Assembly (NCBI GenBank): GCA_951406725.2
Contig: OX597817.1
Span: 105,710,001 to 105,774,000, forward strand
Length of the DNA: 64,000 nucleotides
DNA from: Octopus vulgaris
Lineage: Eukaryota
Direction of reading: 5' to 3'
The notes under the pieces are model-generated. The model made no database searches. It had not been told where the DNA came from and was given only the letters and a program-made list of their open reading frames with translations. Shown piece by piece: positions 2,441-64,000 of this stretch. The stretch's first letter is position 1, and every line of letters starts with the position of its first letter. Both the position numbers and the translations under genes were made by a program.

Positions 2441-3048
2441 AGAGTTGACAGAAACGTAAGCGCGTCGGATGAAATGCTTAGCGGTATTTCGTCTGCCGTT
2501 ACATTCTGAGTTCAAATTCCGCCGAGGTCGACTTTGCCTTTCATCCTTTCGGGGTCGACTTTGCCTTTCATCCTTTCGGGGTCGATAAATTAAGTATCAC
2601 TTACGCACTGAGGTCGATATAATCGACTTAATCCGTTTGTCTGTCCTTGTTTATCCTCCCTGTGTTTAGCCCCTTGTGTGTAGTAAAGAAATAGGTATTT
2701 CGTCTGCCGTTACGTTCTGAGTTCAAATTCCGCCGAGGTCGACTTTGCCTTTCATCCTTTCGGGGTCGATTAAATAAGTACCAGTTACGCACTGGGGTCG
2801 ATATAATCGACTTAATCCGTTTGTGTGTCCTTGTTTGTCCTCTCTGTGTTTAGCCCCTTGTGGGTAGTAAAGAAATAGGTATTTCATCAGGTTTCACGTT
2901 CTTAGATCAAATGTTGCCGAGGTTGACTTTACCTTTCATCCTTTCGGGGTCAATAAAATAAGATCAGTGAAGGAAGTACTGGAGTCGATGTAATCGACTT
3001 TCTCCCTGCTCCCAAAATTTCAGGCCTTGTGCCTTCTGTAGAAAGAAT
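2441..3048 (+). mobile_element. SINE family A multimer (tRNA head with Meta-like core)
   Basis: B-box GAGTTCAAATTCC and core GTCGACTTTGCCTTTCATCCTTTCGGGGTCGATAAA repeated in three units, with an internal ~27-bp duplication near 2526-2585. Confidence 0.85.
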
Positions 3049-3313
3049 TATTTGATTTGAAAACAAGTTAGATTACATCGTAAAAATTATGAAGAAAATC
3101 TGTTTCGGTGAATAAATTCCCAGTAGAGTTTATTTGATGGGGGTAGACATGAAAGAGTAAATCATAGATTTGTGAGAGGCAGAATATGGACAGAGAAAAT
3201 TAGTGAAAAGAAGGGTTAATGTATTCATAGAACAGAGAATTAGAAAGAAAGGATTTTGGTGTCGGTTGGTGTGACAGCAAATTATAAATATGATGACGTA
3301 CTGATAAAATATC

Positions 3314-3547
3314 TATTTCTTTACTGCCCACAAGGGGCTAAACACAGAGAGGACAAACAAGGACAAACAAACGGATTAAGTCGATTATATCGACCCTAGT
3401 GCGTAACTGGTACTTATTTAATCGACCCCGAAAGGATGAAAGGTAAAGTCGACCTCGGCGGAATTTGAACTCAGAACGTAACGGCAGACGAAATACCGCT
3501 AAGCATTTCGCCCGACGTGCTAACGATTCTGCCAGCTCACAAGCCTT
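3314..3547 (-). mobile_element. SINE family A, full length with TSD
   Basis: Reverse complement of the family A consensus; 18-bp TSD ACGTACTGATAAAATATC at 3296-3313 and 3548-3565. Confidence 0.9.
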
Positions 3548-8359: not shown

Positions 8360-8692
8360 GGAAAATGCTTAGCAGCATTTCGTCCGTCTTTACGTTCTGA
8401 GTTCAAACTCCACCGAGGTCGAATTTGCCTTTCATCCTTTCGGAGATCCATAAAATAAGTACGAGTCAAGCTGTGGGGTCGATGTAATCGACTTACCCTC
8501 TTCCCTAAAATTTCAGGCTTTGTGCCTATACTAGAAAGGAATACTAATTTTTACATAAGGCGGCGAACCGGCAGAATCGTTAGTCGTTAGCACGCTAGGT
8601 AAAATTTTTAGCAACATTTCGTCTGCATTCACGTTCTGAGTTCAAATACCACCTCTCCAAAGCAGCTGGCCTTGACCAAAATTTGAAACCAA
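8360..8692 (+). mobile_element. Two adjacent SINE family A copies
   Basis: Head GGCGGCGAACCGGCAGAATCGTTAG at ~8559; core and GGCTTTGTGCC-type tails. Confidence 0.8.
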
Positions 8693-9311
8693 TATTAATT
8701 CTTACACCACTCAAGAACTTTTCCTCGATTTGATGCAACACTTAGTATATTCTTTCTACGGCTTGTTCTTATCTAAAAACATCTGGGGTTGTCTTATAGA
8801 GGCTTGGACATCGGCTGCACAAATCCGAACATATCTCTTTTAAGTTAATTTTCTTCAGTTACGCTATAACCCTTTCATAATTTAGTCCATGAATTTGGTG
8901 CCTCTAGTTGTCTTTTTCCAGAGTATCCTCTTTGCCTTTGTAAAGACATCAATACACAGAGTATGACAACTTACTGATTGAATATGTGAGTTACTGGTGT
9001 GCGTCCTATTTCGCTGGGTATATTAGTATCTTAGTATCTTAGCAATTATCTCTGATAGTACAACACTTCCCCGGCCTTCAGATCGGAAATTGCATTGTAA
9101 ATTTCAATAACTAATCTCTATCGTTTGTTCAGCATCAGCAATGGTGAGTGTGTCACTATCGCTACTATTGTTCCGTACATACTTTTTTCTAACGATATTT
9201 TGATCCGCACTGACACATTGCTTTGCAATCGGAAACGCCAAATACCTGTGACCCTCTTGTCTCACAACATTTGCAAACCCTTTTCTTTCAGCTTCTCTCT
9301 ATGCTATATAT

Positions 9312-9543
9312 ATTTCTTTACTACCCACAAGGAGCTAAACACAGAGGGGACAAACAAGGACAGACAAACGGATTAAGTCGATTATATCGACCCAGTGCGT
9401 AACTGGTACTTATTTTAATCGACTCTGAGAGGATGAAAGGCAAAGTCGACCTCGGCGGAATTTGAACTCAGAACGTAACGGCAGACGAAATACGGCTACG
9501 CATTTCACCCGGCGTGCTAACGTTTCTGCCAGCTCGCCGCCTT
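9312..9543 (-). mobile_element. SINE family A, full length
   Basis: Consensus match; flanking TCTATGCTATAT duplication. Confidence 0.9.
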
Positions 9544-16677: not shown

Positions 16678-18365
16678 CAGTAATACCCCACTTTACGATG
16701 ACCCACTTTACGAGAGCCCGGGTTTACGAGTTTTATTTTATAACTATAAAAAGGTTAAACTGCCATTTTGTATGTGTAGTAACGTCGCAACACGCGGCAA
16801 CACCGGTTCTGACGCGTCTACTCAGCTGCATATAACGACGGAGTAAAATGTCGGCATAAAATTTCAATGTCTCAGTTTGCGCGTGCGCTTTTGTGTAGAG
16901 AGATTATTACAAGCTAGTTCTTTGTGCCACATATTTTATATTGTATACGTGTGTTTACGAAGGGGTACTCTAAAGAAACCGGAATTTTGCAATGTTATTT
17001 TATTCACTTAATTTTACATGTTTACACTTTTATCGCCTTCAAAGTATTCTCCATTTGAAGCAATGCATCGATCTAGACGCGTTTCCCACTGTTCGAAGCA
17101 GTGCTGAAATTCTTGCAATGTGATACCTTTTAACGCCTCCGTCGTTATTATCTTCACCTCTTCCACATCTGCAAATTCTGTAATGCCCAGCTTTCATCAC
17201 CGGTGATGAGCTTCAAGAAAAAAAGTCCAGATCAACTTCCAACTCTTCTTCTAGTTCACGACACGCATTCAGTGAATCTTCCGCGTTTGATCTTCCGTGA
17301 ACAAACGAAGCACAAATTTTGCTGCAACTATCTTCATTCGCAATTCCTCGCTCAAAATTCGTTGGCAGGAGCTCCAGGACATACCAACCAATTATATCAA
17401 CAAGTTCGTTAATTGATCAGTGGCGGCCCTTCAGGAATTTTTATGATGTTTCCATTTGTTCGGGAGGTCGACGGTCGCCCTGAACGAGGTTGGTCTTCAA
17501 ATGACAAGTGACCTTTCCTAAAGTGTGAACACTACTCGTAAACTTGTGTTTTGTTCATGGCAGCGTCCTTGTAAGCTGTTTGAAGTATTACAACTGTTTC
17601 AGCCGCCATTTTTCCCAGCAGAAAGCAGAATTTCACGGATGCACGCTGTTCCTTCGTTTCAGCCATCGCAAAAATCGACGAACAGTGGAGAATCTCTGCA
17701 AAACAAAGACGCACCACGTGACAGTACGACCTCACTCGACGACGCCTGTGGGTTGCATCAAATCACTTCTAGTGGCGGAAGCCCGAACTTCAACGAGATT
17801 GTTCCACAGAGAACGTTTCCGGTTACTTTTGGGTATCCCCTCGTATACTATTATTTTCGGCATTTTTTAAACCTATCTAATATGTCTAAACGAAAGCGTA
17901 CAACGGATACCGATGGGAACAAAAAGAAACGAAAAGCCATCACTTTCGAAACTAAGTATAAAATGCTTTTTCTAAACAAACAACACCAGACTTGTTTTTT
18001 TAAAAAGAAATCTGCAAGTCCGTCTACGAGTACTTGTGAATCAGCGATCGTGTCTACAAGTAATTGTGTGCGCGAGTTTAGTGCGAGGAAAAGTGATTCA
18101 GAAAACGATTACAATAATAATTTTTAAAAAATCATAAATGATCTTGACATTCTTTTTACTTTACATAAAATATTCTTTACATTCTACTGTTGTTTTATTG
18201 CCATTTGTTTACGAGTATAATAAATTTTATAGGTAAAATATTTTTCTGGGAATGAATTACGTTTTATAACATTGCTACTATGGGAAATTATTACTCTTCT
18301 TTAAGAGTTTTCACTTTACGATCGGTCTTCTGGAACAAATTAACTCGTATATTGAGGCATTACTG
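16678..18365 (+). mobile_element. Non-autonomous Tigger/pogo element
   Basis: TIRs CAGTAATACCCCACTTTACGA and TCGTATATTGAGGCATTACTG with TA TSDs; N-terminal remnant MSKRKRTTDTDGNKKKRKAITFETKYK at ~17882. Confidence 0.8.
16958..17843 (-). mobile_element. Internally deleted mariner element
   Basis: TIRs CGAAGGGGTACTC and GGGTATCCCCTCG with TA flanks. MAETKEQRASVKFCFLLGK..AETV..LQTAYKD..KTQVYE; ITGDESW joined to C-terminal FQHCFEQWETRLDRCIASNGEYFEGD. Confidence 0.9.
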
Positions 18366-55623: not shown

Positions 55624-56900
55624 GGCGGCGAGCTGGCAGAAACGTTAGCACGTCGGGCGAAATGCTTAACGGTATTTCGTCTGCTGTTACGTTCTGAGTT
55701 CAAATTCCGCCGAGGTCGACTTTGCCTTTCATCTTTCGGGGTCGATTAAATAAGTACCAGTTACACGCTGGGATCGATATAATCGACTTAATCCGTTTGT
55801 CTGTCCTTGTTCGGCCCCTCTGTGTTTAGCCCTTGTGGGTAGTAAAGAAATAGGTACTTAAAGGCGGCAAGCTGGCAGAAACGTTAGTACGCTGGACTAA
55901 ACGCTGAGCGGTATTTCGTCTGTCGCTACGTTCTGAGTTCAAATTCCGCCGAGGTCGACTTTGCCTTTCATCCTTTCGGGGTCGATTAAATAAGTACCAG
56001 TTATGCACTGGGGTTGATATAATCGACTTAATCCGTTTGTCTGTCCTTGTTTGTCCCCTCTGTTTACCCCCTTGTGGGTAGTAAGGAAATCGGTATTTCG
56101 TCTGCCGTTACGTTCTGAGTTCAAATTCCGCCGAGGTCGACTTTGCCTTTCATCTTTCGGGGTCGATTAAATAAGTACCAGTTACACACTGGGATCGATA
56201 TAATCGACTTAATCCGTTTGTCTGTCCTTGTTCGGCCCCTCTGTGTTTAGCCCCTTGTGGGTAGTAAAGAAATAGGTACTTAAAGGCGGCAAGCTGGCAG
56301 AAACGTTAGTACGCTGGACTAAACGCTGAGCGGTATTTCGTCTGTCGCTACGTTCTGAGTTCAAATTCCGCCGAGGTCGACTTTGCCTTTCATCCTTTCG
56401 GGGTCGATTAAATAAGTACCAGTTATGCACTGGGGTTGATATAATCGACTTAATCCGTTTGTCTGTCCTTGTTTGTCCCCTCTGTTTACCCCCTTGTGGG
56501 TAGTAAAGAAATCGGTATTTCGTCTGCCGTTACGTTCTGAGTTCAAATTCCGCCGAGGTCGACTTTGTCTTTCATCCTTTCGGGGTCGATACATTAAGTA
56601 CCAGTTACGAACTGGGGTCGATATAATCGACTCAATCCCTTTGTCTGTCCTTGTTTGTCCCCTCTATGTTTAGCCCCTTGTGGGTAATAAAGAAATAAGA
56701 AACGTTACTGGGCCGGGGAAAATGTTTAGCGGTATTTCTTCCGACTTAACGTTCTGGGTTCAAATGCCGCCAAGGTCGATTTTGCCTTCTATCCCTTTTG
56801 GGGGCCGATAAAATAAGTACTACTTGAGCACTGAGATAAATGTAATCGACTCACCTTCTATCTCGAAATTGTTGGCCTTGTGCCAAAATTTGAAACCAAT
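55624..56900 (+). repeat. Tandem array of six SINE family A units
   Basis: Units start near 55624, 55863, 56092, 56285, 56514 and 56699; includes a ~421-bp higher-order duplication. Confidence 0.92.
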
Positions 56901-59155: not shown

Positions 59156-59555
59156 GGCGGCGAGCTGGCAGAAACGTTAGCACGCCGGGCGAAATGCGTA
59201 GCCGTATTTCGTCTGCCGTTACGTTCTGAGCTCAAATTCCGCTGAGGTCGACTTTGCCTTTCATCCTTTCGGGGTCGATAAATTAAGTACCAGTTACGCA
59301 CTGGGGGGCTCGATGTAATCGACTTAATCTGTTTGTTTGTCCTTGTTTGTCCTCTCTGTGTTTAGCCCCTTGTGTGTAGTAAAGAAATAGGTATTTTGTC
59401 TGTCTTTACGTTCTGAGTTCAAATTCCACCGAGGTCGACTTTGCTTTTCGGGGTCGATAAATTAAGTACCAGTTGCGTCCTGGGGTCTATCAAATCGACT
59501 GCCCCCCAACCAAAAAAAATAATAATTTCGGGACTTGTACTTAGAGCAGAAAAGA
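59156..59555 (+). mobile_element. SINE family A dimer
   Basis: Full head; second unit restarts at GGTATTTTGTC (~59390). Confidence 0.9.
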
Positions 59556-60269
59556 ATATTTTGCTTGTCTGCCTTAGTGTATCCTTATATTTTCAAGGGT
59601 TTCTTTTTTTTTTTTAAATATAATAAAATCCACGCGTCAAAAAGAAAAAAGAAATGGAGGTAGAAAATGGTTAGAACGTTAGAGTGTAGGATAAAATAAC
59701 TTGTGCTGGCTGTCTGCTTGCTGTAAGTTCAAATCTTATAGAAGTCAAGTTTGCTTTTCATTTTTTCCTTCAAGATCAGTAAAACAAAGTACCCCTACAG
59801 GGCGGCGGATTGGCGGAATTGTTTAAACATCGGAAGATAAACCTCATGCTGTTTGTAGTGACCCTGTATTATGAGTTCTTGTTGGTTTTAGAATAGCTTT
59901 AATCCATCACCCCTTCTCTTGCAAGCATTCGGTCAAAGTGTCCGGTTTGAGATTACTCTTTCTCACACTAACCGTGTAAACTTTGTAAACTAACCTTGTA
60001 AACTTTGAAAACGTTTTCAGTGATGATTCCATTCGCTCCCTAAATGGTAAAATGCAAGTGAGAAGCTTTTTTATGTTTAAGTGAAATGAGTTCTAGCTAT
60101 AGCCGAGTAGTTAAGAAATTTTACGATCATGAACTCCCAGCTTCGATTCAACTAAATACCAACTTAGGCTAATGTATTTTATATAACCTCGAGTTGACCC
60201 ATGCCTTGAGAGTGAAACTGGGTAGACGGAAACTAATGTGAAAGACCGTTAAGTAGACTGCACTTCAAA

Positions 60270-60660
60270 TTGTTTCAAATTTTGGTACACAGCCGACAAT
60301 ATTTTAGGGGAAGGGAGTTACATCGACTCCATTACTTGATGGATACTTTATTTTATCAACTTCGGAAGGATGGAAGGTAAAGTTGACCTCGGCGGTATTT
60401 GAACTCAGAACGTAAAGAACTAAAAGAAATGCTTAATTCTTTATTACCCACAAGGGGCCAAACACAAAGGAGACAAACAAGGACAGACAAACGGATTAAG
60501 TCGATTACATCGACCCCAGTGCTTAACTGGTACTTAATTTATCGACCCCGAAAGAATGAAAGGCTAAGTCGACCTCGGCGGAATTTGAGCTCAGAACGTA
60601 ACGACAGACGAAATGCCGCTAAGCATTTTGTCCGGCGTGCTGACGTTTCTGCCAACTCGA
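60270..60660 (-). mobile_element. Two SINE family A copies
   Basis: Reverse complement of consensus. Confidence 0.8.
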
Positions 60661-61872: not shown

Positions 61873-63339
61873 GTCTGAAAATATATATCCACTTCATTAG
61901 TATTCATTCACCCTAAAATTTGAGAAAAATTAAATTATAATCTTAGAACTATTGCATTTCTAAATCTCTCAGAGAGACTTATGCAGTAGCAGCACGTAAA
62001 GTGATGGTTTGTTGCCAACTTAACGTGGCAGTCCCAGGAAAGGGAAGAATGCTACTGCTATTTAACCCTAGGAAACATCGTTTCCAGTTGGCTACGTGAC
62101 ACAAGCGTTCTGTGTCCTTAAGTTTTTAAACAGAGGAGATATATTATAATCATTATACATATAATCCTTATACGTGCGTAGCATTATCTGATATTACCCA
62201 CAATGGCAAAAGTATATTCCCAATAGTATCCGACATATGACACGTGTACACTCTTGATATAATCTTTATTCAGATAAAGAGATATTAAATTCTGAAGAAA
62301 AGGTAATGATAGTTGCTTGAATTCGGGAACTTTACAGTTGCCCTGTTTGCCGGTGTATAAGATTCGCTCTAACAGAAGACAAGCCCTTACATTTCTGTGG
62401 AAAAAAAAAAAAGTATATATAGCGGCAAAAAACTAATTTAGTACGTTTCATAATACACTCTTACGCGCATACACTCAGTATCTCATCCATAATACGGTCG
62501 CATTAGACGTATAGCAAGGTTTTGTTACATTTAAGAATGCACATCTTATACACCAGCATATATTGCATGTGAACTCGAACAAATGAGAATGTGAAAACAG
62601 AACATGAAACAACAATGACTCTAGGAACAAATGGTCGCTTCTGAATGGCATGGTGGAATGATTTTACTTTTTTTCATATAAGTGAGAATATTTAGTTGTG
62701 TGTGTGTGTGGGGGGGGGAGCAAAGTAAATTCAAGTGGGGTTGAGAATAAATTAGAGTTTGACACTTTGGTGACATTATATTCAAAGAGGGATTCCATTA
62801 ACGCTTTATTCAAAACACAAGATGGATTTTTTTCTGAAGCCAGCCGCAATTTCAGTGACAGGCTTGACATTAATGGTTCCTGTGATTTTAGGAATGTCTC
62901 TGAAATGTTATGTAATATATTCATTCTTTACCAACACATAATACTACAAATTTACGTATTATTATGTATGTATTCATATGTATGCCTTTTGTATGTATAG
63001 TTGTATTTATTTATGTGTGTATGCATACTTGTATGCGTGTAGCCATTTATGTACGTACATATCTCTATATATTTATGAATGTGTGTGTATACGTGTGTGT
63101 TTGTGTGTACATACATACATATATACATACATACATACATATATACATGTATGTATATGAGTAGGTAGGTATGTACTAGAAGTTCTCCCAAACTTAGGAG
63201 GTTTATCTTCATCAGGAGGGGTGTGGTGCACGCCCAGTCCGTCCTGAGTCTTGCTAAACTTCGGTTTCTAGTCGATCCACATATCTCAAATCCACCGTCG
63301 CTGCCCTTATGGACATACATACGTCCCAGTGAAAACCTC

Positions 63340-63635
63340 AATAAAGGTCATAGAGGTCAGCTGTCCTGCTGATGTGAATATCTCTTTAAAAATCAAAGAG
63401 AAAGAAGATAACTTTGGCCAACTGCTTCGAAAACCCCAGCTTCTATATCCGGATTGCAAATTTACATTTATACCAATAATAATGGAGCACTTGGTTTTGT
63501 AAGTAAATGCCTAACTATCAGTCTGGATAAACTTCGATTTTTCAGAAGAAATCAACCAAGTGACTCGCACATTACAAATACAATCTAAGCGGTACAGTCA
63601 AACTACGCAAGACTTTTCTCAGGTTTAAAATATGA
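63340..63635 (+). mobile_element. R4-like LINE restriction-like endonuclease C-terminal fragment
   Basis: KVIEVSCPADVNISLKIKEKEDNFGQLLR..LYPDCKFTFIPII/GALG..SGTVKLRKTFLRFKI*. Confidence 0.75.
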
Positions 63636-63770
63636 CATCGTTTTCGTTATCTACATTCGGACGATGAAGCTTTGTACATTTGTTAGAAACCAGCTACTTC
63701 TTCAAAGGAAGATTTTAAATGATTATAAACAAAAAAGAACACACATAATATATATGTTTATATATATATA

Positions 63771-63896
63771 TATTTTATAGAAGGAGCTTCTACAGGACTA
63801 GAACTGTTTCATTCAAATGAAATCATCATCTAGCTTCCTGATGATTTCATTTGAATGAAACAGTTCTAGTCCTGTAGAAGCTCCTTCTATAAAATA
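63771..63896. repeat. Perfect 58-bp-arm inverted repeat overlapping the hammerhead
   Basis: Arms 63771-63828 and 63839-63896, loop TCTAGCTTCC; (AT)n on both sides. Confidence 0.97.
63832..63882 (+). ncRNA. Type I hammerhead ribozyme in a short PLE-like element
   Basis: Stem I AGCTTC/GAAGCT; CTGATGA; short stem II TTC/GAA; GAAA; stem III CAG/CTG with 8-nt loop; GUA triplet. Confidence 0.85.
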
Positions 63897-64000
63897 AATT
63901 AATTTACTCTGCTATGTATTGAGTACCTTATTTACTGTGGTTAACCCCGACTCAACCCGGGACCTACATATATATATATATATAAACTGAAGGATTACGA

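What the first reader, a model, noticed from the sequence alone, without database searches (positions are those of the whole stretch)
63771..63983. Hammerhead ribozyme covered by its own perfect antisense arm
Seen: a complete type I hammerhead (63832-63882) in a ~200-bp element between (AT)n tracts. A perfect 58-bp inverted copy lies just upstream and is complementary to everything from the second base of the core onward. Known: PLE insertions carry hammerheads in their pLTRs and often have an inverted 5' partial repeat. Inference: a read-through transcript would form a 58-bp duplex that blocks cleavage and offers ADAR or Dicer a substrate, whereas RNA starting in the loop could cleave. The identical arms imply a very young insertion.
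Basis: partly seen in the sequence, partly recalled or inferred. Interest (0 to 1): 0.72.

Follow-up and report, generated by a model that had tools for sequence, protein, structure and literature searches.

The report
Cap-marked twin Penelope insertion stub
This hairpin is real but is one of well over a thousand back-to-back stubs of the front end of a Penelope-type jumping gene, so the "antisense cover" on its predicted ribozyme is likely a by-product of insertion; the stubs' inner ends pile up at one base and often carry an extra G, which likely records two DNA copies each run off the capped start of the same RNA.

Summary
The element is a head-to-head stub of the 5' leader of a Hydra-clade Penelope-like retrotransposon (parent ORF 714 aa). 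The genome holds 2,056 exact 3'-end junctions. Of 90 sampled, 65 carry an inverted arm and none of those arms has the ~70-nt tail; 645 loci are loop-less palindromes. So the antisense arm is the family's usual insertion layout, which is published for PLEs. Identical arms occur in 21 of 45 pairs and do not show unusual youth. The motif lacks the G10.1-C11.1 pair, and its active stem II is about 2% populated in the armless fold. The useful part is mechanistic. Both arms end at the first base of stem I, 29 nt below a TATA box, often with a non-genomic G (47 of 82 joins to AT-only flanks). The longer arm is tail-less in 16 and tailed in 13 of 32 loci, and arms share subfamily variants (38 of 38). 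This points to twin priming on one capped, uncleaved sense RNA rather than fold-back. The scan's own unchecked notes reached similar readings on other DNA.

The parts
63747..63770 (.). Left (TA)n target flank; a TSD cannot be read inside the repeat
   Evidence: (TA)n flanks throughout the family
63771..63828 (-). Tail-less inverted arm: element positions +59 to +2 (C3 of the core = +1), inferred cDNA primed at the inner start site B
   Evidence: outer ends at +60 to +70 in 64 of 65 sampled inverted arms (BLAST ends, inflated by TA matches)
63829..63831 (.). Junction bases TCT: continue the TCA repeat of the left arm and match the parent at -7/-6; no extra G in this copy; junction unique in the genome
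63832..63832 (+). First base of hammerhead stem I (position -5) = inferred capped transcription start of the parent RNA
63832..63882 (+). Type I hammerhead-like motif, predicted cut after 63876; atypical weak stem II (U.U at 10.1/11.1)
63830..63971 (+). Tailed forward arm: matches read-through parent copy L154 from -7 to +134 with one difference (loop II, a common subfamily variant present in both arms)
63897..63971 (+). One-sided 'tail' of about 70 nt between the two fixed ends (site B near +59/+62, site A near +131/+134); part of the parent's 5' leader, ATG at +178
63968..63984 (.). Right (TA)n target flank; first ATAT shared with the element end

Best explanation
This is a short head-to-head insertion of the 5' leader of a Hydra-clade Penelope-like retrotransposon, likely made when both nicked strands of a (TA)n target each primed a cDNA on the same capped, uncleaved sense RNA, and the two short cDNAs ran off the RNA's 5' end and were joined to each other. 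Shown: family, parent ORF, two fixed outer ends about 70 nt apart, one tail per insertion, inner ends piled at -5, an extra non-genomic G there, variant concordance between arms. Inferred: -5 is the transcription start, the G is the copied cap, one primer starts at site A (+131/+134) and the other at site B (about +60), each through a few TA bases, and the cDNA ends anneal by microhomology (most often the AGCT palindrome). The antisense cover of the hammerhead follows from this geometry and needs no function. Longer copies would come from the same two sites in the 3' pLTR of a read-through RNA.
For: Parent: loci L005 and L019 run from the same leader into an ORF; L159 holds a 714-aa frame with RT, CxCx5C linker and C-terminal GIY-YIG-type motifs. 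Layout: 65 of 90 tail-anchored copies have an inverted arm, 0 of 65 tailed, 52 are mini hairpins; 645 loop-less palindromes centred on AGCT. RNA 5' end: forward starts at -5 in 21 of 90 and at -5..+1 in 40 of 90; inverted inner ends at -5 in 20 of 65; TATAAAT lies 29 nt upstream in 60 of 61 motif pairs, not de-duplicated, across subfamilies with different spacers. Extra G: 805 matches of G before AGCTTCC, while none of the 61 TATA-bearing copies has G there; 47 of 82 joins to AT-only flanks have G (hand count), against 3 of about 36 for starts at -3..+3 (hand count of listed rows; Fisher p about 2e-7). Two cDNAs: 88 loci have the extra base on both arms with 0-10 nt between, some with a 1-nt spacer; the arm that reaches G/-5 is tail-less with a tailed partner in 16 and tailed with a tail-less partner in 13 of 32 loci, 3 other (two script labels corrected by eye). 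One donor: 0 of 38 discordant at +12 against about 19 expected; 1 of 50 listed palindromes discordant at N7. Uncleaved template: 0 of 90 forward starts at +38..+42. Fits PMC11167929 (two internal RT start sites bounding the tail, both strands cut and extended, predicted dimer, uncleaved RNA used).
Against: No RNA data: the start site and cap are inferred from DNA junctions only. The window copy itself has no extra G and its forward arm may start at -7; its TCA slippage junction could equally come from a fold-back. Many G junctions are ambiguous because the partner arm supplies GG (about half of the 100 rows), and most double-G spacers are templated. Extra G also occurs at -4 starts (4 of 11) and a few -2 starts, so terminal addition by RT or start heterogeneity contributes. 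Arm concordance could come from subfamilies active at different times or from gene conversion. Asymmetric deletion at palindrome centres after insertion could mimic either arm being longer. A minority of copies do start near the cut site: about 11 solo joins at +38..+40 against 4-5 at the other TA site, and 7 short palindromes at the second AGCT (hand count of the 100 listed rows of 113). The sample of 90 is the first 90 exact matches on one contig and favours young copies.
Confidence: 0.72

Rival explanations
1. Fold-back: one cDNA primed at the tail end runs off the RNA, folds on itself (AGCT or the added C) and copies itself back to site B, where the endonuclease or TA microhomology joins it to the target. 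A published variant has self-priming on an antisense template (PMC3846280).
For: Explains perfect arm concordance and the 645 AGCT-centred palindromes; the window's own junction fits it; PMC3846280 passages argue for self-priming.
Against: It predicts that the tailed arm is never the shorter one at the centre, but the tail-less arm is the one reaching -5 in 16 of 32 loci and reaches far upstream of the tailed arm in L006, L087, L117 and L121. Zero-loop and 1-nt-spacer centres are hard to self-prime. Solo tail-less copies with the extra G exist (L199).
Confidence: 0.15
2. One reading: the arm is a functional antisense lock on an active ribozyme and a dsRNA source for ADAR or Dicer at this locus.
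For: The full hairpin is predicted at -94.5 kcal/mol and abolishes the hammerhead fold; PLE copies yield antisense small RNAs in a rotifer (PMC3846280 passages).
Against: The layout is the family default; the junction is unique, so this stub has not spread as a unit; the armless motif is predicted mostly misfolded and lacks G10.1-C11.1; metazoan PLE hammerheads cleave poorly in vitro (PMC4209133); no host gene or transcript was shown.
Confidence: 0.05
3. The inner ends mark a 3' splice site (YAG before CTTCC) or RT stalling at the hammerhead, not a capped start.
For: TAG or CAG precedes -3 in most copies; in D. virilis the intron end maps to the 5' end of helix I (PMC4209133); blunt joining at -3 gives the same perfect palindrome.
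Against: Non-palindromic junctions keep the AG and add G; no constant upstream exon is seen; starts at -3 joined to (TA)n are rare (1 of about 62 listed loci). RT meets the 3' strand of stem I first, so a structural stall would pile ends near +45.
Confidence: 0.06
4. Fold-back chimera of the assembly at this locus.
For: The exact apex was not seen bridged in four public runs held as contigs.
Against: The arm's outer end sits at the family's fixed site B and the same layout recurs at hundreds of loci; similar apices occur in contigs of two studies.
Confidence: 0.02

Closest known systems
Hydra clade of C-terminal EN+ Penelope-like elements (Craig et al. 2021, PMC8557442; section 11, passages and supplement hits read)
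   Same: Single ORF with RW(R), DKT, CxCx5C linker, CxxC and CxH near the C-terminus, (TA)n targets, hammerhead in the pLTR, inverted 5'-truncated copy with a one-sided tail.
   Different: A different family from Hydra-1_Obim by eye on the printed protein; its hammerhead strings were not found in that supplement. Tail about 70 nt against the published 30-40. Stem II lacks G10.1-C11.1. Most sampled copies are ORF-less leader stubs.
PAc/Poseidon of Anolis carolinensis in vitro (Frangieh et al. 2024, PMC11167929; parts 1-2 of 4 read)
   Same: Two internal RT start sites bound the tail, both strands are cut and extended, AT-rich targets, uncleaved RNA is the template.
   Different: In the parts read, the paper does not tie the two sites to the two arms of an inverted insertion or describe run-off at a capped end. 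Its start sites are not homologous to the target; here both ends sit in short TA-rich motifs, and the ORF starts at +178, downstream of both sites.
Adineta vaga Penelope inverted pLTRs (Arkhipova et al. 2013, PMC3846280; passages read)
   Same: Head-to-head inverted pLTRs, palindromes at the junction, optional tail at one end.
   Different: That paper proposes self-priming on an antisense template; the junctions here point to two cDNAs from sense RNA.
L1 twin priming and cap-derived untemplated G (review PMC4859970; passages read)
   Same: Two target-primed cDNAs joined by microhomology; extra G at full-length 5' ends read as the copied cap.
   Different: From my own knowledge, L1 twin priming gives inverted and direct pieces that barely overlap and have variable second start points; here both start sites are fixed and the pieces overlap almost fully.
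Minimal hammerheads of metazoan PLEs and non-LTR retrozymes (PMC4209133, parts 1-2 of 4; bioRxiv 10.64898/2026.07.22.740005, part 1 of 5)
   Same: Type I motif in the pLTR; dual motifs on opposite strands 100-700 bp apart were already noted in Schistosoma.
   Different: Longer stem III (4 bp, 8-nt loop), short stem II without the G-C closing pair; the stub is not a tandem retrozyme.

Membership tests
EN+ Penelope-like element | Single ORF with RT and C-terminal GIY-YIG endonuclease in the parent | tested here: met
   714-aa frame in L159 with LDIEDYY, YRDDG, YIGMT; 1,221 homologues among 7,999 scored, some listed ones carrying PF00078 or PF01541. A direct Pfam scan gave no RT or GIY-YIG hit.
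EN+ Penelope-like element | pLTR / partial tandem with inverted 5' copy and one-sided tail | tested here: met
   0 of 65 inverted arms tailed
EN+ Penelope-like element | Target-site duplication | tested here: inconclusive
   Not readable in (TA)n; PMC8557442 notes the same limit for microsatellite targets
Hydra clade | RWK, DKT, CxCx5C linker, CxxC and CxH motifs | tested here: met
   RWR at 39 (R for K), DKT at 117, CNCPDKTTC at 568, CDLC at 668, CMH at 696 against the description
Hydra clade | (TA)n insertion preference | tested here: met
   (search patterns for required TA at one end; the other end was free)
Hydra clade | Placement in the clade on an RT tree | not tested
   Only visual comparison with the printed alignment
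Type I hammerhead ribozyme | CUGANGA, GAAA and NUH with stems I and III | tested here: met
   recurrent variants fall at N7, loop II and loop III (core boxes were fixed by the pattern)
Type I hammerhead ribozyme | Stem II closed by G10.1-C11.1 | tested here: not met
   U.U at +8/+19 in 190-191 of 191 motif matches; active stem II 0-18% among sense variants folded
Type I hammerhead ribozyme | Self-cleavage | not testable with these tools
   Only an indirect, small excess of ends near +40; none in 90
Non-LTR retrozyme / self-copying MITE-like hairpin | Copies of one unit with a shared junction or tandem monomers | tested here: not met
   Window junction occurs once; junctions vary between loci

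The most novel reading that the evidence does not exclude
These stubs are double 'strong-stop' products: a PLE dimer primes from both target strands at two fixed sites of one capped sense RNA, whose first base is the first base of hammerhead stem I. The inverted pLTR and one-sided tail of all EN+ PLEs would then come from twin priming, not antisense self-priming, and the span from the start site to the ribozyme cut would be a terminal repeat akin to the retroviral R region, with the 5' ribozyme kept uncut on productive templates.
Probability: 0.55. Interest if true: 0.72.

Novelty: new member of a known kind. Interest (0 to 1): 0.42.

Why it matters
The locus itself is ordinary. The family is useful because how PLEs make inverted pLTRs and the tail, and what their hammerheads do, are stated open questions (PMC8557442, PMC11167929). 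Here thousands of independent junctions give base-precise predictions: start site at -5, two priming sites about 70 nt apart, a cap-derived G on either arm, one donor RNA per insertion and uncleaved templates. These can be tested with 5' RACE and the existing in vitro TPRT assay, and they disagree with the published antisense self-priming proposal. More than a thousand 60-bp perfect hairpins are also a possible genome-wide dsRNA source, untested here.

Tried and rejected
Rfam: only miRNA and snoRNA look-alikes below gathering score, no hammerhead. Pfam on parent ORF pieces and on the 714-aa frame: no RT or GIY-YIG hit, only weak unrelated ones. Sequencing runs: no RNA holder listed on record; all runs were contigs, so start sites, editing and small RNAs could not be read, and the exact apex was not seen bridged (tables were cut). 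Lunse et al. 2017 on PLE hammerhead variants is not held, so whether a U.U at 10.1/11.1 is a described active variant is open. Paper search 'Penelope' + 'twin priming' gave 3 papers, seen as listings only, none about PLE mechanism by title or abstract start; searches showed no listing on cap-marked PLE stubs; this is no proof of absence from print. Rejected: young age from arm identity; self-copying hairpin family; splice-site origin of the inner end; structural stall. No tree was built. No host gene was identified among 27 frames of 120 aa or more in the window. Search of scan notes by sequence found nothing.

Full report
Numbering: C3 of the core (63838) is +1 and 0 is counted, so the first base of stem I (63832) is -5 and the predicted cut follows +39 (63876).

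Observation. The arms 63771-63828 and 63839-63896 are perfectly complementary over 58 bp around a 10-nt loop. The hammerhead boxes are present. Stem II is weak: three pairs, a 4-nt loop and U.U in place of the G10.1-C11.1 pair that PMC4209133 calls highly conserved. In the armless 51-mer an alternative hairpin that sequesters G12-A13-A14 has pair probabilities of 0.57-0.72 and the active stem II 0.01-0.02; with the downstream tail even stem I falls to about 0.07; with the arm every hammerhead pair is 0.00. Folding models are weak predictors of ribozyme activity, and the Anolis PLE ribozyme needs protein. Recurrent variants sit at N7, loop II and loop III, as expected for a constrained motif.

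Family and parent. The genome (2.8 Gb, 227 contigs; an octopus-like animal is my guess from size and from scan notes) gave 711 candidates, 40 scored, all 99-100% identical. The exact tail end joined to TA occurs 2,056 times and one exact form of the inner end 190 times; reversed controls gave 0. L005 and L019 continue past the tail into an ORF. L159 holds a 714-aa frame with ATG at +178 and RT, CxCx5C, GIY-YIG-type, CxxC and CxH motifs, matching the description of the Hydra clade and, by eye, its printed alignment. Pfam did not recognise it directly; homologues do carry RT or GIY-YIG domains in a few rows.

Layout. I fetched the first 90 of the 2,056 tail junctions, all on contig C1, chosen only on the tail. 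65 have an inverted piece within 880 nt upstream, none with a tail; 64 of the 65 end at +60 to +70; 52 are mini hairpins; in 36 of 41 with a forward start at or above -3 the arm covers +3..+45. Genome-wide, 645 loci are loop-less palindromes centred on AGCT. The antisense cover is thus the default. Inverted 5' copies with a one-sided tail are described for PLEs. The window's junction is unique, so it was made at insertion, not copied as a unit.

Age. Among 45 pairs with at least 40 shared sites, 37 of 2,364 sites differ and 21 pairs are identical; 58 identical sites have probability 0.40. The family is young; this copy is not shown to be younger than its sisters.

Inner ends. Forward arms start at -5 in 21 of 90 and at -5..+1 in 40; inverted arms end at -5 in 20 of 65; no forward arm starts at +38..+42. 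TATAAAT lies 29 nt upstream of -5 in 60 of 61 motif pairs (not de-duplicated). The parent base before -5 is T, C or A, yet G stands there in 805 matches. About half of the listed ones are ambiguous because the partner arm supplies GG. The clean test is joins to AT-only flanks: G 47, T 17, C 11, A 7 of 82 (hand count), against 3 of about 36 for starts at -3..+3 and 4 of 11 at -4 (hand count). Untemplated G at full-length 5' ends is read as the copied cap for L1 and SVA. I infer a capped start at -5.

One cDNA or two. 88 loci carry the extra base on both arms; most spacers are templated, some are a single base. Of all 32 contig-C2 loci listed, the arm reaching G/-5 is tail-less with a tailed partner in 16, tailed with a tail-less partner in 13, and 3 are other (L177 and L197 were mislabelled by the script and corrected by eye). 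A fold-back from the tail-primed cDNA cannot make the tail-less arm the longer one, though later deletion at the centre could. Arms agree at subfamily sites: 0 of 38 discordant at +12, about 19 expected if drawn at random, and 1 of 50 at N7. This suggests one donor RNA, with sequential subfamilies or conversion as alternatives. The picture joins the two in vitro start sites, two-strand extension and predicted dimer of PMC11167929 to the inverted layout, and disagrees with antisense self-priming.

Ribozyme use. Stubs include sequence on both sides of the cut, so their templates were uncut. A small excess of ends near +40 exists (about 11 solo joins against 4-5 at another TA site, plus 7 short palindromes at the second AGCT; hand count of 100 of 113 rows); TA and AGCT microhomology could explain it.

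This copy. It is a slightly atypical member: no extra G, forward arm from -7 or -5, inverted arm ending at +2, with a TCA slip at the join. On its own it cannot separate twin priming from fold-back. Its reality in independent reads is not shown, although similar apices occur in contigs of two studies.

Prior work. The layout, the hammerhead and the clade are published. My searches did not list a paper tying twin priming or a copied cap to PLE inversions. The scan's own unchecked notes report the twin-primed reading in many genomes, including a capped-start reading; I formed mine before reading them and count them as no support. Papers seen: PMC11167929 parts 1-2 of 4; PMC4209133 parts 1-2 of 4; bioRxiv 2026.07.22.740005 part 1 of 5; PMC8557442 passages, section 11 and supplement hits; passages of PMC3846280, PMC6765202, PMC2377424, PMC4859970, PMC13282606. 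The bioRxiv supplement was closed and Lunse et al. 2017 was not held; either may bear on the stem II variant.

Verdict. Observation confirmed; regulatory reading not supported; new member of a known kind with a testable mechanistic record. Interest 0.42.

Noticed in passing
window 63985-64000, continuing as L033:985-1499 (G000 C4:105773985-105774499): A single-copy host sequence is duplicated as a roughly 515-bp palindrome (arms about 257 bp, 99% identical in the unique part, TA repeat at the centre) whose left end abuts the element's right (TA)n flank; only these two matches exist in the genome. It may be a template-switch duplication at a (TA)n site, made before or with the insertion.
   Followed up: partly
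63756-63773 and 63970-63987: The outer flanks form an 18-bp inverted pair (four bases beyond the TA run on each side), which suggests the empty site was itself a short palindrome at the edge of the neighbouring duplication.
   Followed up: no
63170-63740: Decayed high-copy repeat directly upstream (high contig depth), with broken frames; looks like the end of a LINE (recalled resemblance, not tested).
   Followed up: partly
G000, many places: A second PLE family, 46% identical to this parent's protein, has dozens of near-identical copies with 727-aa open frames and looks currently active, whereas only one near-full frame (L159) was seen among the 12 fetched copies of this family.
   Followed up: no
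L031:2400-4030 and L032:4450-6300: The parent's 3' UTR consists of 1.5-2 kb of TA/TG microsatellite-like sequence that is carried along between copies as part of the element.
   Followed up: no
window 2471-3509, 8387-9493, 55687-56684, 59217-60603 and others: Many copies of one SINE-like repeat in both orientations, some in tandem.
   Followed up: no
window 17522-18127 (+): 201-aa stop-to-stop frame ending in a basic stretch that resembles the N-terminus of a Tigger/pogo-type transposase (label recalled, not tested).
   Followed up: no
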